Shown here: positions 13,415 through 53,264 of the stretch, piece after piece
Numbering within the stretch: position 1 is the stretch's first letter
Layout of the letters: every line of letters starts with the position of its first letter
Source: the human T2T-CHM13v2.0 reference genome, Homo sapiens
Length of the DNA stretch: 64,000 nt
NCBI RefSeq assembly: GCF_009914755.1
Contig: NC_060930.1
Reading direction: 5' to 3' (one strand)
Made by a program: the position numbers and the translations under genes
The notes under the pieces: model-generated
Database searches by the model: none
Seen by the model: the letters and a program-made list of their open reading frames with translations, nothing else
What the model was told of the DNA's origin: nothing

Positions 13415-14743
13415 AAAATGGTAGTTCTGATTTCTAAGATCATTTTAAATTATAGTTATATGATAAAACAACATTCAAGATAATTTAGATAATATATGAT
13501 TTGTTTTTATGTTGGTTAAAATGATTAGCTTGGAAAATGGTTCAGATTAGTGTGGAATTTTTTATGAACTCACCTATGATCAATGACTGAATTTGAATTG
13601 AGTTTATAGAACAATTATTGGTATTTTCAACTAAGTATTGTTGTACAGTAAAGCAGAGCTAGTGAGATACCCAATGGAAACAGCATCTAAAAAGTTGGTC
13701 TCCAGAAGTATCATTTATACAAATATTCTTCTAAAAGCTTTATCACTGAATACCTCTATTTGTAAAAAAAGATACATACATATATATATATATATACACA
13801 CATACATGAATACTTAAAATATCTTTAAGGATGCTGCCATTATATTCATTTATTAATTATATACCTGTTCTATATTATATGCATTATAAAATATGTAAGG
13901 TATAAAATTAAAAGAATAAGATAAAGATTAAATAATAAACTTAGTTTCATTCATGGTATGTTTATATGGTATGGTATATGTATATACAGTATGGTATTTT
14001 TGTTTTGGCTAAAACAGAAATAGGTAATGCAATTGAGTATGAACCATTATTTTTTAAAAATTTGTTAAACATTTTGAATTGTAGAAGATCTGATTCTATA
14101 GTTTGATTTATTGATTTTAATGGCTGTATGACTGAAAAATGCTTCCTCACAAAAATATATAGATCTAAGTGGAAAATAAATTGTTGGCTAAAAATTATGC
14201 CAACATTTTTAATGAAATTCAACTGATGCATTTCCATCTCACTTGAAGTTAATCAGTTATTCTTGTAAAGTAGCCACATGATGCTAAACTTAAACATTTC
14301 TGGCAAATGTGTTCAAAATGCTGTCAAATATGTCAATAATTAAAATATTTCTAAACATCCACTTTTACGACATTCTCTTCATAGTATTAACTTTTTTTCA
14401 ATCAACAACTTTTTTTTTCTTTTTGCCATAAAATAATCAGCAAAGCTCTGTGTGGCATAAATGGCGTTTATGATCACCTACATCTCAATACTAAGTATTA
14501 TAAAGAATCATTATATTTTAAATGTCGTTTTCAAGAAATTCACTCCTTTAATAACATTGTCACACTTAAGAAAATTTCTAGCTTCAAGTTTTGTCACAAT
14601 ATCTTTCCTATGATTACTGTAAATAATGATTTTCATGTGTGTAGTACTACTACTATTTTCTTGCTTTGCTGTTTTTTTCTTGTCTGACACCCTCTCACTT
14701 GTTACAGTCTTTCCATTAAATATTATTATTTTATTTTTATTTT

Positions 14744-15437
14744 AATATTTCAAGAGATTTATTCTAAGCCAAATATGAGTGACCATGGCCCATGACGCAG
14801 CCTCCAGGAAGTCTTGAGAACATGTACCCAAAGTGGTTGGGGTGCAGCTTGGTTTTATACACTTCAGAGAGGCATGAGACATCAATCAAATACATTTAAG
14901 AAATACATTGGTTTGGTCCAGAAAGGCGGAACAACTCAAAGGGGTGTGAGAGGTTCCAGGCTATGGTGAATTTAAATATTTTCTGTTTGACAATTGGTTG
15001 AGTTTTTCTAAAGACCCAGGATTGATAAAAAGGTAATGTTCAGCTTAAAAATAAAGATTGTGCAGCACAAAGTTCTTTTGAAGTCTTATAGTGGCTGTCC
15101 TTAGAGACAATAGGATGACAGATGTTTCCTGTTTAGATTTTAGGTAATCTCTTTAGGATTGGGAGTGTCTGGAAGAAAAAGATCTAGCTATGTTAATACA
15201 GATTCTTCATAGATGCAAATTTTTCCCCACAAAGAACAGCTTTGCAGGGGCATTTCAAAATATGGCTAAGAAGCATGTTTTTGAGTAAAATATTTTGATG
15301 TTCTTCTTTATCTTGTAATATTATGCCAGAGTCAGGTTGGAAAGTAAATAATGATATATAGGGTTAAATAAAACCCAACCTGTCTGATGCGAATTTGTGA
15401 TTTGTAGGCCATGACTCCCCAGACACCTTAGATAGGA
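14744..15437 (-). mobile_element. MER4-family ERV1 LTR (MER4D/E-like), lacking U5 and the extreme 5' end
   Basis: gagatttattctaagccaaatatgagtgaccatggcccatgac...cagcttggttttatac...catgactccccagacaccttagatagga. Confidence 0.85.
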
Positions 15438-15448
15438 GTAAGTCCTTA

Positions 15449-15982
15449 CCAGAATTTGTGAGATATGATTAAAGTAGTGCTGTGAGAGAAATGTTTATCC
15501 TTAATAACTTATATTAGCAATAAAACTATGATCATTGGTCAGATAAGTATTTATCTTAAAACATTATTAATTGAACAGGAGAGTAAATCCAATGAATTAA
15601 AAAGGAAGAGATAATACAAATGAAAGTGAAAGTTAGTACAATAGGGAAAAAATGATAAGGTAGAGATCAACAAATCAAAAAATTTGTTCTTTGGAAACAA
15701 ATCAACAAAATAGACAAATTGCTTGCAAGACCGATCAAGAGAAGAAAAGAGATCACAGAAATAAACAATTTTATGAATGAAAAGTTGAGCACAGCCCTAA
15801 GTAGAGATTACAAGATAACCAAAGGTAATTATAAGATGCATAGGTAGTTCAATTGGGGAAGGATAATCTTTTCAACAAATAGTGCTGAAACAACTGAATA
15901 TCTGTATTTTTTAAAAAGAAAACTTTGATTCTTATATCATACCCTGCATAAAAATTAACTCCAGATGAATCATAGACACAAG
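15449..15982 (+). mobile_element. Ancient L1M ORF2 fragments (two non-contiguous pieces joined near 15835)
   Basis: gagatcaacaaatcaaaaaatttgttctttggaa...; ggggaaggataatcttttcaacaaatagtgctg. Confidence 0.8.
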
Positions 15983-16187
15983 TGATATGGCTCCAACGAG
16001 TGGAGGAACACCAGGGTTCTTGGTCCTCATGCCAGTTTAGATAAAACGACACGGACACACATGGAGTGGTTTTAAGGAGCAGATAGTTTAATAGCCAAGA
16101 AGGAAGAAGAAAGCAGAAGGAAGAGGCTCCCCCATATGGAGACAGGGAAGGGAGAGGGGGATCCAGAGCCGAAAGAGGAGGTCCCCC
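15983..16187 (-). mobile_element. ERV1 LTR 3' part (R-U5), LTR9/MER61-group (HUERS-P3)-like
   Basis: Terminus tgatatggctcc; gataaaacgacacggacacacatggagtggttttaaggagc; ATTAAA on the minus strand; family name from memory. Confidence 0.7.
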
Positions 16188-16615
16188 TTAAATATTATTT
16201 TTTAAAGAACTCATTTAATGTTAAACTTATAATTTCTCTAATATAGTTTTCCTTTTAGGGTTAATAGTAAAAAGCAAAATATCATATATTTCCTTATTTA
16301 AAAATTGAATATCCCAATCTAAACTATATAGAAACACTGGTGTTTTGAGCTAGCTGTGTAGCAATTCTACCATTTATGAAAGAGTGAAAGTGGAATAGAA
16401 CAAGATCATAATGTTAAATTACCCCTTCAACAAAGATATGCACTGTGGAAATGTATAAAGTGATGATAACATGTCTCTTTAAGTTTTTTTGAGAATAAAG
16501 TAAGGTCGCTGTTTTATGTAGACTCATAGAAATATTGAAATTCTAAAACGACATGGTATAATTTTTGAAGAAATCTTCAGTTCCTGAAAGAGGGTAGAAC
16601 AGAGGATGTTTTCTT

Positions 16616-37200: not shown

Positions 37201-39116
37201 ATCGGGAATAACAAATGGCTGATCATTTTTTAATTAAAGTGGTAATCAAACAATTACCAATGCTCTTATTTCAGTTGTTAATATATCTGCTCACATCCTC
37301 TTTCCCCCCACTGAATTAACTCTAGTATGAAAAATTTAAAAAGCCACATTGTACAATTGTTGATTTCTTTCCTACTTAAGGAGCAATTGTTGTATTATAA
37401 TTATATATGATATGGATGAGTTATGTTGAACAATTCACTTGCTGTGATTTTTCCCTTTTTTTCATTATGTTGACATATTTTATGAAGACAGAACATCTCG
37501 TTGCTGCAAAATGCTGCTTTTAATGACAGTAAGCACCTAAACGAAGTATTGTGCAAATGTTTTGGTCACACACACCTTAATGTTTAAACAAAACATCAAA
37601 CCAATTAGCAAGCCATGCTTCAGAGATACTGTATATAGCCTGATAGCAGGTTCTAACGTTTTTTAAAATCTCATTAAATTGATGAACTTAATTCTTCCTA
37701 CTTTTATGGTAGCAGATAGGAAATCTTGAGGGACAAACAATAATTTCACAGTCATCTGAGATTATTACACTGATTACCTTTTATTAATTCAATTTCCCAT
37801 TTGTTTCTTTGACATTTTGAAAGGATAAAAAAGTTTTTTTGTGTATGTGTGTGAACTTGCTTTTGAAGCCCCACTATTTCTAATAATAAAAAGCGTTCAG
37901 GGATGATGTACATTGCTTCAACATACTCTATTCATGTTGTACATCAGAGATGACTTGGTTTCTACAGCGTCTTAGATAGAAGGCTATTAAACCAGAAAAA
38001 AAGTATGCAATTTTCAAGAATGATTTAAGGCGTATCTCTTTTTTTTGTTCCAGCATGCTTATCTTCTAATTCACCCTATATGTTAGGTTTTATCTGAAGG
38101 AAATCTACACATTCAGTTTTCTCCAGACACAAAATCTAAGAGTTGGGGTATAAGGGGTAGGACCACACAAAAAGCAAAAGACTTAGAAAAGACATTAACA
38201 AGGATTACATTTCTTTGATTATAATTATCTTATTGCTATTAGGTTTGTTCTGCTTTATTTTACGTTTTAAGACTTATAGTAAAAATTATACCCAGGCTAA
38301 AGTTTCAAAAACTTAGATAGAGAGATACACAATAAAATATAAAAGTAGTATTTGAAAAAAATGCGATTTTACTTCTGGTTGCAAAATTGCCTTTTATATT
38401 TTTAGATAAATATTTACCAACTTATTTTGGATTATAATCAGATTATTGATATGGTTATCAAAATTTTCCTTCAGTGAGGTTGTTCATACACATTCAGCTA
38501 GATTCTTCCAATGGATAATAATTCTTAGTCAAAAGGTCAAATTTATTCTAGTTTTAATCAATGTCCCATTATTGCAATCCAAATGAGCTTAATATTACCC
38601 ATAAATATTGTGTTTATAATTTTTATCTTCATTAGGAATAAAAGATAAAAATTCTAAATGTATGGCTTTTGAACCAAGTGGTATGGTGTTGGTTTCTTGT
38701 AGAAATGGTCAAAATACTTTGAGGTATGCTAGCTGTTTTAGTTTTCTGGAGTAATGTTTAGTATATTATTCTAATAGACCTAGAAGCAATATCCAAACAG
38801 GCCGGAGAAGTTAAAGTGCTCCTGAAACTGATCTATTTATTCCCGTGGAGGACTCTTGGATCTCCTTGTTGGTTCCTTGTTATTGGAAAATCATATCAAA
38901 TATGAATTCATATTAAATATTATTCTTTCAATAAACACTGAAAAGGAAATTGTATTTTTCCCATATTGTTGACAAATCAACTGAAACAACTTTATTTTGC
39001 TTAATGAGTATTGGTTCCAGCCAGATGGGCTCATTGTTATTTCCTCAAAAGCCAGTAGATGGAAAACTAATCAACATTTTAATAAGTTGTTTTATGTACC
39101 CAAAATAAGAGTAGAA

Positions 39117-51690: not shown

Positions 51691-53264
51691 TCCTTTTGTA
51701 CAGTTTTCTCTAGGCTGGATGCTTCATTGCACAAATCATTTTCTATTAGCTATCAAGCACAAACTGAGCCAAAAGCTCTATTGCTAAGATGCACAAAATT
51801 ATAACTTGAAATTGTTTTTCTGCATTCTCCATTTTTTACTAGCAGGAGAATAGGAGACCTTAATTTTTATTTCAATTAGTAACATTGAAATACATTAAAC
51901 AGAATCTGTGGTGGCAGCTGTGTATTCTCACTTTGACTTGAAAACTACATTCATTGATATCTTTTTAGTCTTTGGAAAGAAATTTATTGTCCATTATAGC
52001 TGCTACTGCTCTGAACCCTTTTGATAATTGTCCATGCAAGAGCCTGTTCTCTTTCCTTTGAGAAAATAACAATGGCATACTGTACTTCACAGGTGCAAAA
52101 ATGAAATGATTTGCTCCATCATTTAGTTTGCTTAATTTACAGCTTTTTATGTTTAATTATGTCTATTGTTCATAGATTGGATATTGAGGATCCAACAAAG
52201 ATGATATTTGAAACAGCTTTGTAATGTCATTGAGTAGGTCCTACACTGCAGGATACTTAAATCTTTTCTCCAATTGTGACAGTTTGGATATCCTCAGGGG
52301 TTCCGAGCTGTCTTCAATTATGCCAGCTGTCTTAACGTGGAATGTAAAACTACTATTACAGTGGGGAATTAAATATTATTTGGCCCAATTTTACCTTTCT
52401 AGTCAACAGTGAATAGCATGTGCCTGCATATACACTGAAAGCAGACTGTAGCGCGATGTGTTAATGTGCTGTGGATACAGTTTTCCTTTATAAGCATTTA
52501 TGATTCCAAGAGAATACCCATCTGCCACTAATAAGTTGAGTAACCTTGAGTATGCTTCTTTATCTCTCTGATTTCTACTTCTTCACCTATAAAATGAAAG
52601 CGTTACTAAATAATTTGGAAGCCATTTGGCATAGAATCATGTAAGTCTTATTATTTGGAGAATTTTATTGTTCTCTTCTCTGCTCCCTGCTCTGATGACC
52701 TAATGGAGCCTCAGCCTCACCTAAGGCTCACCTCATGACTACAGTTTCTGCAAAGATTGGCAGCTATAGCAAGATCACTGTGATCTCAAACTTCTCCCTA
52801 CTCTGTTATCCTCAGAGATGCATGTTTCCTGAGAGCTTTTTTAGAAACCAGTCAGAATGAAATTTGCAAGAATATCAGATTTTTTCTTTTTGGAACTGGT
52901 GTGCAGCAAGATTTCAGCTGACTGTTTAAGGTATAGTTCTCATTTGGGAGAGCTTCGTATAGCACTTGCAAACAGAAATTTTAGGTGATATCCTGGTTCT
53001 AAAGGATGGGGGGTGGTGGTGGTGACTTAAGCCCATAAATCCTTCTAAGTTATATTTGAATGCCATTCTAGGTATGCATAATTTATTATACTATTCATTT
53101 TATCACTATCCACAGACATGGGAGAACTAGAAATTGAGGGTGGGATAAAATTTTAGAGGAGTAAGAAGACACTGCAGGACATTTATGGTCTAAAAGCCTA
53201 AATATTTTTCTAGTTAGTCATTGGACATGGCCATATCCGGGCCTGGATGAATCTCAATTATTTT

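What the first reader, a model, noticed from the sequence alone, without database searches (positions are those of the whole stretch)
14716..16203. Retroposed chimeric transcript started by one ERV LTR and polyadenylated by another
Seen: three unrelated repeats sit inside one direct repeat (ttaaatattatt at 14716 and 16188), and the reconstructed empty site reads TTT/AAAAAATAATATTTAA, a canonical L1 endonuclease target. On the minus strand the insert is LTR R-U5 ending in CA (16187-15983), then antisense L1M, then a MER4 LTR that stops 14 nt after its AATAAA (14763-14758) and is followed by an A-rich tail instead of U5. From memory of the LTR9-type consensus, the 5' end lies about 25-30 nt downstream of the TATA box, at the LTR start site, and it begins with a G run compatible with a copied cap. 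Inference: a full-length cDNA of a germline or early-embryo non-coding RNA made at another locus, mobilised in trans by L1. Repeat annotation would list it as three independent elements. Alternative: a twin-primed inversion with its junction near 15440.
Basis: partly seen in the sequence, partly recalled or inferred. Interest (0 to 1): 0.85.

Follow-up and report, generated by a model that had tools for sequence, protein, structure and literature searches.

The report
Retrocopy of an LTR-driven read-through RNA
This 1.44-kb stretch in a GRIK2 intron is an old, dead L1-made DNA copy of a non-coding RNA that began in one retroviral LTR and was polyadenylated in another on distal chromosome 6; it is a neat example of an ordinary, known process.

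Summary

**Anatomy.** Window 14744-16187, read on the minus strand, has three parts:
- R-U5 of one LTR, here called LTR-A (16187-15983)
- two pieces of L1 ORF2 in antisense (15982-~15448)

The second LTR stops 14 nt after its AATAAA. A 16-nt A-rich tail follows. The insert sits between exact 12-nt direct repeats at a TTTTTT/AAAG site.

**Source.**
- It is the only other place in this genome that scored as colinear with all three parts (about 90% identity).
- It continues beyond both ends of the insert.
- Upstream lies the LTR-A U3, with a family-conserved TATA box ending 24 nt before the copy's first base.
- Downstream lie the 28-30 nt of U5 that all 18 other copies examined also carry.
- No intron was removed. 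Twin priming and template switching are excluded.
- The copy has one more 5' G than the source, which fits a copied cap.

**Limits.**
- The 200-nt R-U5 piece alone does not pair the window with the source.
- The repeat family names could not be checked.
- No outgroup genomes or expression data were available.

**Placement.** This is an L1-made retrocopy with the R-U5...U3-R architecture of HERV processed pseudogenes, but built from two different solo LTRs. It is a new member of a known kind, of modest interest.

The parts
16188..16199 (.). Target-site duplication, the copy at the 5' end of the insert in insert sense. It may extend to 16203 (TTTT).
   Evidence: Exact 12-nt repeat of 14716-14727. 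It directly abuts the first base homologous to the source.
15983..16187 (-). It starts at the inferred transcription start with GGGGG and ends ...ATCA.
   Evidence: It aligns to the 3' 200 nt of 19 genomic LTR-A copies and of the source LTR. The U3 with the TATA box is absent here and present in the source.
15836..15982 (+). L1 ORF2 C-terminal fragment (ORF2p around residues 925-948), antisense to the insert.
   Evidence: all 4 hits are L1 ORF2p, but weak (E 0.2-0.45); 39 dispersed genomic hits at 72-90% identity fall within query 389-541 only.
15448..15835 (+). L1 ORF2 fragment (ORF2p around residues 333-398), antisense to the insert. It adjoins the fragment above with about 1.6 kb of ORF2 missing between them.
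   Evidence: the top hits are L1 ORF2p (E 0.09-0.5). The same junction is present in the source.
14744..15447 (-). AATAAA is at 14763-14758 and the cleavage site at 14744. About 34 nt near its 5' end are missing relative to the source.
   Evidence: 83-87% identity to 38 listed full-length copies. U5 is absent, against 19 of 19 other copies. Sister to the source copy at 100/98.
14728..14743 (-). Degraded poly(A) tail (minus-strand AAAATAAAAATAAAAT).
   Evidence: it replaces the U5 that every other copy examined has at this position.
14716..14727 (.). Target-site duplication, the copy at the 3' end of the insert.

Best explanation
Window 14744-16187 is a promoterless, L1-made retrocopy of an unspliced non-coding RNA of about 1.44 kb, inserted by target-primed reverse transcription.

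**The RNA.** It was transcribed on the minus strand at G000:C6:159.666-159.668 Mb.
- Transcription started at the U3/R border of a solo LTR (LTR-A), about 24 nt past its TATA box.
- It read through that LTR's own ATTAAA.
- It crossed about 540 nt of an old L1 in antisense.
- It entered a second, unrelated solo LTR and was cleaved and polyadenylated 14 nt after that LTR's AATAAA.

**The insertion (inferred steps).**
- L1 ORF2p nicked the GRIK2 intron at TTTTTT/AAAG.
- It primed on the poly(A) tail and copied the RNA to its capped 5' end.
- This left a 12-16 nt target-site duplication.

**Shown.** The anatomy, the source locus, the colinearity and the end points.

**Inferred.** The enzyme, expression in the germline or early embryo, and the age. 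From K2P 0.105 and recalled primate neutral rates, the age is roughly 25-45 Myr.
For: 1. **One colinear locus.**
   - each scored the best 40 candidates (of 4372, 959 and 494). Only C6:159.666 Mb matches across all three parts.
   - The match falls in two blocks separated by a later Alu insertion: 87% over 1289 window bases and 89% over 169. A global alignment gives 90.3% over 1421 aligned bases.
2. **Sharp ends.** Homology ends exactly at 16186/16187 and at 14744.
3. **Upstream in the source.** The LTR-A U3 continues there. ATATA(T/G)AC is conserved in most of the 20 aligned copies and ends 24 nt before GGGGACC.
4. **Downstream.** The source and 18 of 18 other copies carry 28-30 nt of U5. The window has an A-rich tail instead.
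5. **Insertion hallmarks.** An exact 12-nt TSD and a TTTT/AA-type site.
6. **Extra 5' G.** The window has one more G than the source. Full-length L1-mediated insertions typically carry an extra G from the cap (PMC11702581, passage read).
7. **Second LTR.** Window and source are sisters at 100/98 with a stem of 0.022. They share 16 derived substitutions.
8. **Even divergence.** K2P is 0.129, 0.090 and 0.108 for the three parts, as one event predicts.
9. **A later Alu.** An AluY-like insertion with a 15-nt duplication sits in the source only, so it came later.
Against: - **R-U5 piece.** On its own (about 200 nt) it does not pair the window with the source. The tree is unresolved and puts the window beside two other copies. 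Window-source identity is 86.3%, against a maximum of 87.4% to other copies. An AU test does not reject the window+source clade (p 0.272). A short stem is expected if LTR-A integrated shortly before the retroposition.
- **Extra G.** It lies in a homopolymer run in sequences that differ by about 10%, so it may be a later indel.
- **Tail.** It is short and impure.
- **TSD word.** It recurs 4 times in the window.
- **L1 identity.** The protein matches for the middle are only marginal (E 0.09-0.5).
- **Far flank of LTR-A.** A protein search there found nothing. Only 1 of 4 L1 copies aligned on both sides of LTR-A.
- **Candidates.** Each genome search scored only the best 40.
Confidence: 0.9

Rival explanations
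1. It is an L1-made retrocopy of the same locus, but of a longer RNA that began upstream of LTR-A. Candidates are a host-gene or neighbouring-element read-through, or an orphan L1 3' transduction. On this reading the cDNA was 5'-truncated by chance at the LTR's U3/R border.
For: 5' truncation is common in L1-mediated insertions (established knowledge). The R-U5 tree gives no extra support for a start in the LTR.
Against: - The 5' end lies 24 nt past a conserved TATA box, one position among about 1440 or more.
- The copy has an extra 5' G.
- None of the 9 longest open frames in the 10 kb upstream of the source matched any Pfam family at E <= 0.01, so no reverse-transcriptase or endonuclease domain was found. 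This is a weak test, because decayed L1s lack long frames.
Confidence: 0.06
2. A DNA-level duplication or transposition copied 1.44 kb from chr6:159.67 Mb into the GRIK2 intron. The A-rich run and the direct repeat are coincidental.
For: Both loci are on chromosome 6. The flanking DNA is AT-rich, and the repeat word recurs in the window.
Against: - The ends coincide with a transcription start and with a cleavage site 14 nt after AATAAA.
- The U5 is replaced by an A-rich tail.
- The insert is flanked by a 12-16 nt duplication at a TTTT/AA site.
- The two loci are about 57 Mb apart.
Confidence: 0.02
3. These are three independent repeat insertions (LTR fragment, L1 fragment, LTR fragment), as standard repeat annotation would list them. 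Alternatively, it is a chimera made during reverse transcription by twin priming or template switching between separate RNAs.
For: The three parts belong to unrelated dispersed families.
Against: - A second locus has the same three parts, in the same order and orientation, with the same junctions.
- The two copies of the second LTR share 16 derived substitutions.
- No segment is inverted relative to the source.
Confidence: 0.01

Closest known systems
HERV processed pseudogenes made by L1. HERV-W: Pavlicek 2002, as cited, and Grandi 2016 (PMC5016936, passages read). HERV-H and one HML-2 locus: PMC3590776 (passages read).
   Same: The 5' end is R-U5 without U3. The 3' end is U3-R without U5, followed by poly(A). 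The insert is flanked by L1-type target-site duplications. The estimated age overlaps the 25-35 Myr window given for HERV-W pseudogenes in PMC5016936.
   Different: There is no proviral interior. The two LTRs belong to different families and were separate solo LTRs about 540 nt apart. The RNA is a read-through of host DNA (antisense L1), not a viral genome.
Processed pseudogenes and retrocopies of cellular RNAs, including the 'retro-DNAs' of Tang and Liang (PMC11195612, abstract read)
   Same: TPRT hallmarks are present: a poly(A) tail, a longer TSD and a TT/AAAA-type site. The parent locus is identifiable, and the content is repeat-derived and would be annotated as ordinary repeats.
   Different: The parent RNA is unspliced and made wholly of LTR and L1 sequence. 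Both its ends are defined by LTR signals, so the copy records an LTR promoter and an LTR poly(A) site in use.
L1 twin priming and template-switch chimeric retrocopies
   Same: Both give a composite insert inside one TSD.
   Different: The source DNA already has the composite order and orientation. No inversion or RNA-to-RNA switch is needed.

Membership tests
L1-mediated (TPRT) retrocopy | Target-site duplication of roughly 7-20 bp directly flanking the insert | tested here: met
   Exact 12 nt, or 16 nt with one mismatch, abutting both homology ends.
L1-mediated (TPRT) retrocopy | 3' end at a poly(A) site, followed by an A tail that is absent from the source DNA | tested here: met
   The copy ends 14 nt after AATAAA. 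A 16-nt A-rich tail stands where the source and 18 of 18 other copies have U5.
L1-mediated (TPRT) retrocopy | Insertion at a TTTT/AA-like endonuclease site | tested here: met
   The reconstructed empty site is TTAAATATTATTTTTT/AAAG.
L1-mediated (TPRT) retrocopy | An identifiable parent locus that extends beyond the copy (promoter not copied) | tested here: met
   C6:159.666-159.668 Mb carries the U3 with its TATA box upstream and the U5 downstream.
L1-mediated (TPRT) retrocopy | Loss of introns relative to the parent | tested here: not met
   Copy and source are colinear. The only large difference is an Alu that entered the source later, and a 34-nt gap at the L1/LTR junction is too short for an intron. 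The parent RNA was unspliced, so this feature has nothing to act on.
L1-mediated (TPRT) retrocopy | Empty orthologous site in lineages that split before the insertion | not testable with these tools
   No primate genomes are held; one search states that the genome 'has no relatives here'.
HERV processed pseudogene (HERV-W type) | 5' R-U5 and 3' U3-R truncated LTRs | tested here: met
HERV processed pseudogene (HERV-W type) | Colinear with a proviral RNA: both LTRs of one family, with gag-pol-env remains between them | tested here: not met
   The two LTRs hit disjoint sets of genomic copies. The interior is antisense L1.
Twin-primed L1 insertion | The 5' segment is inverted relative to the template | tested here: not met
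   There is a single-orientation alignment to the source over the whole insert.
   No repeat library was available. The parts are shown only to be members of two multi-copy LTR families, each with TG...CA ends.

The most novel reading that the evidence does not exclude
The copy may be a full-length fossil of an LTR-driven germline or early-embryo non-coding RNA. Its parent unit at chr6:159.67 Mb (solo LTR promoter, antisense L1 body, second solo LTR as terminator) may still be transcribed today. If so, such two-LTR retrocopies could be mined genome-wide as dated records of which solo LTRs acted as promoters and terminators in the ancestral primate germline.
Probability: 0.15. Interest if true: 0.45.

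Novelty: new member of a known kind. Interest (0 to 1): 0.3.

Why it matters
The insert is non-functional, and it lies antisense in a GRIK2 intron. Its value is as a record.

- **Fixed end points.** It fixes, to the base, where an ancient LTR promoter started and where another LTR's poly(A) signal ended an RNA in cells that reach the germline, tens of millions of years ago.
- **Annotation.** This would slightly distort repeat counts and the ages given to LTR and L1 fragments.
- **Promoter timing.** The near-zero shared stem in the R-U5 piece hints that the promoter LTR was young when it fired. This fits the usual view that LTR promoters are most active soon after integration.

Tried and rejected
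- **Twin priming or template switching.** Rejected, because the source is colinear.
- **Splicing at 15440 or 15835.** Rejected, because both junctions are present in the source DNA. The 34-nt difference at 15440 resolves into small deletions in a T-rich stretch.
- **Independent insertion of the second LTR.** Rejected by the 100/98 sister grouping and the 16 shared derived changes.
- **APOBEC-type G>A excess on the copy.** Not seen: 6 of 38 window-private changes are G>A.
- **R-U5 tree as extra proof.** Uninformative.
- **Protein search of the L1 flank beyond LTR-A.** No hits. The DNA comparison with 4 L1 copies bridged the LTR in only 1.
- **Search for an L1 or other coding remnant in the 10 kb upstream of the source.** None of 9 open frames matched Pfam.
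- **Literature.** Four searches turned up no paper describing this locus or a retrocopy made from two LTR families. They were not aimed at this locus, and no supplements were seen.
- **Family names, outgroup empty site, and CAGE or poly(A) data.** Not obtainable here.

Full report
**1. What is in the sequence**

The direct repeat TTAAATATTATT is exact at 14716-14727 and 16188-16199. Read on the minus strand, the insert between the repeats runs as follows:
- It begins GGGGGACCTCC... at 16187.
- An LTR end (...GAGCCATATCA) lies at 15983.
- About 540 nt follow whose + strand translates to L1 ORF2-like peptides.
- From about 15447 comes a second LTR, with AATAAA at 14763-14758.
- This LTR stops at 14744. 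The run AAAATAAAAATAAAAT follows, and then the second repeat copy.

The reconstructed empty site on the + strand is TTAAATATTATTTTTT/AAAG, a TTTT/AA-type L1 endonuclease site.

The 12-mer occurs 4 times in the window, against 0.17 expected. It is an AT-rich word, and its weight comes from where it sits, not from rarity alone.

**2. The source locus**

Three searches of the window's own genome were run. Each scored the best 40 candidates.

| Query | Candidates | Result |
|---|---|---|
| whole insert | 4372 | one other colinear locus |
| non-MER4 half | 959 | same locus only |
| L1 middle alone | 494 | same locus only |

- The one colinear locus is G000:C6:159665935-159667699.
- In one search it is the only hit that covers the middle: 90% identity over bases 7-536 of 542.
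- The other 39 hits are 72-90% matches confined to query 389-541. That region is a dispersed L1 segment.
- BLAST pairs window 14744-14912 and 14898-16186 with two blocks of the source.
- The two blocks are separated by an AluY-like element with a 15-nt duplication. This Alu is absent from the window, so it entered the source later.

A global alignment shows that homology starts and stops sharply at the insert ends.

*Upstream in insert sense.* The source continues ...CTGCATATAGACCTGGCTGGTATCCACCGCACTT before GGGGACC. An alignment with 19 other copies of this LTR family gives three results:
- ATATATAC is a conserved TATA box that ends 24 nt before the G run.
- CCAAT and ATGCAAAT motifs lie further upstream.
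- The LTR ends ...GTATCA, exactly where the flank shared by window and source begins.

*Downstream.* The source and 18 of 18 other copies of the second LTR continue after AATAAATCTCTTCAAATATT with 28-30 nt of U5 ending ...ACA. The window has its A-rich tail instead.

*Context of the source LTRs.*
- The source LTR-A runs on to about 159668214 and holds an Alu-monomer-like insert in its U3.
- Neither source LTR is followed by primer-binding-site-like sequence of the kind seen after two proviral copies. This, with the L1 flanks, fits two solo LTRs.
- One of 4 L1 copies compared aligns on both sides of LTR-A with nearly contiguous coordinates.
- A protein search of the far flank found nothing.

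**3. Shared history**

| Segment | K2P, window vs source |
|---|---|
| whole (1421 aligned bases) | 0.105 |
| R-U5 | 0.129 |
| L1 | 0.090 |
| second LTR | 0.108 |

They are even across the three parts, as a single event predicts.

*Second LTR.*
- In a maximum-likelihood tree of 20 copies, window and source are sisters at 100/98.
- The shared stem is 0.022, and the tips are 0.063 (window) and 0.042 (source). The rest of the tree is a star.
- The substitution counts are 16 shared derived, 38 window-private and 25 source-private.

*R-U5 piece.*
- This 200-nt piece does not recover the pair.
- An AU test does not reject the pair (p 0.272).
- The tips of window and source (0.088 and 0.081) are close to the family median of 0.074.
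- This would follow if LTR-A integrated only shortly before the RNA was copied. That is inference.

**4. Mechanism**

*Shown.* A copy that lacks U3 at its 5' end and U5 at its 3' end, with an A tail and a TSD, next to a parent locus that has both.

*Inferred.*
- RNA polymerase II started at the LTR-A U3/R border.
- It ignored that LTR's own ATTAAA about 95 nt downstream.
- It crossed the antisense L1.
- It used the second LTR's AATAAA.
- L1 ORF2p then inserted a full-length cDNA at a TTTTTT/AAAG nick.

The window has five Gs where the source has four. Full-length L1-mediated insertions typically carry an extra G from the cap (PMC11702581, passage read). In old homopolymer sequence this is only suggestive.

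No intron was removed. The 34-nt shortfall at the L1/LTR junction near 15440 resolves into small deletions.

With recalled neutral rates of about 1.2-2.2 x 10^-9 per site per year, 0.052 changes per lineage gives roughly 25-45 Myr. This overlaps the 25-35 Myr period reported for HERV-W processed pseudogenes (PMC5016936, passage read).

**5. Comparison with what is known**

- HERV-W processed pseudogenes have exactly the R-U5...U3-R-poly(A) architecture, with L1-type duplications (PMC5016936, passages).
- Retrotransposed HERV-H elements and one HML-2 locus are also reported (PMC3590776, passages).
- 'Retro-DNAs' show that TPRT copies repeat-derived RNAs more widely (PMC11195612, abstract).

The present element works like these but is not a HERV processed pseudogene in the strict sense. 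Its two LTRs belong to different families (disjoint hit sets), and its interior is antisense L1.

It is therefore a new member of a known kind. The four literature searches did not turn up this locus or a two-family case. They were not aimed at this locus, and supplements were closed.

**6. Verdict**

- Observation: confirmed.
- Interpretation: supported, at about 0.9.
- Main residual rival: a chance 5' truncation of a longer RNA, at about 0.06.
- Family names, the outgroup empty site and present-day expression remain untested.
- Interest: 0.3.

Noticed in passing
L002:1209-1500 (G000:C6:159666105-159666396): A near-intact AluY-like element with a 12-A tail and a 15-nt target duplication lies inside the source's second LTR. 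It is absent from the window copy, so it entered after the retroposition.
   Followed up: partly
L054:633-745 (G000:C6:159668032-159668144): An Alu-monomer-like fragment of about 113 nt, followed by an A/G-rich run, sits inside the U3 of the source LTR-A. About 50 nt more of the LTR lie beyond it. Whether it was there when the LTR fired cannot be told, because U3 is not copied.
   Followed up: partly
window 15438-15450 versus L002 about 2036-2085: The window lacks about 34 nt at the L1/second-LTR junction, including most of the LTR's first 40 nt. This looks like several small deletions in a T-rich stretch and is not an intron.
   Followed up: partly
window 15744-15750: A 7-nt stretch (minus-strand ATCTCTT) is present in the window but absent from the source, next to a similar TCT-rich motif. 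It is a small slippage-type indel.
   Followed up: no
L012 and L019, just 3' of the second-LTR copies: In two copies the LTR is followed by a shared TGGCGCC... stretch and then similar sequence. These look like 5' LTRs with primer-binding sites of proviruses, whereas the source copy is followed by unrelated DNA.
   Followed up: no
window 38913-38924 and 52369-52380: The TSD word TTAAATATTATT occurs twice more in the window, for 4 in all against 0.17 expected from shuffles. This reflects AT-rich, low-complexity intronic sequence.
   Followed up: no
Tree of the second LTR: The window copy's branch (0.063) is longer than the source's (0.042). No G>A excess explains it (6 of 38 window-private changes). 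The cause is unknown; regional rate differences or reverse-transcription errors are possible.
   Followed up: partly
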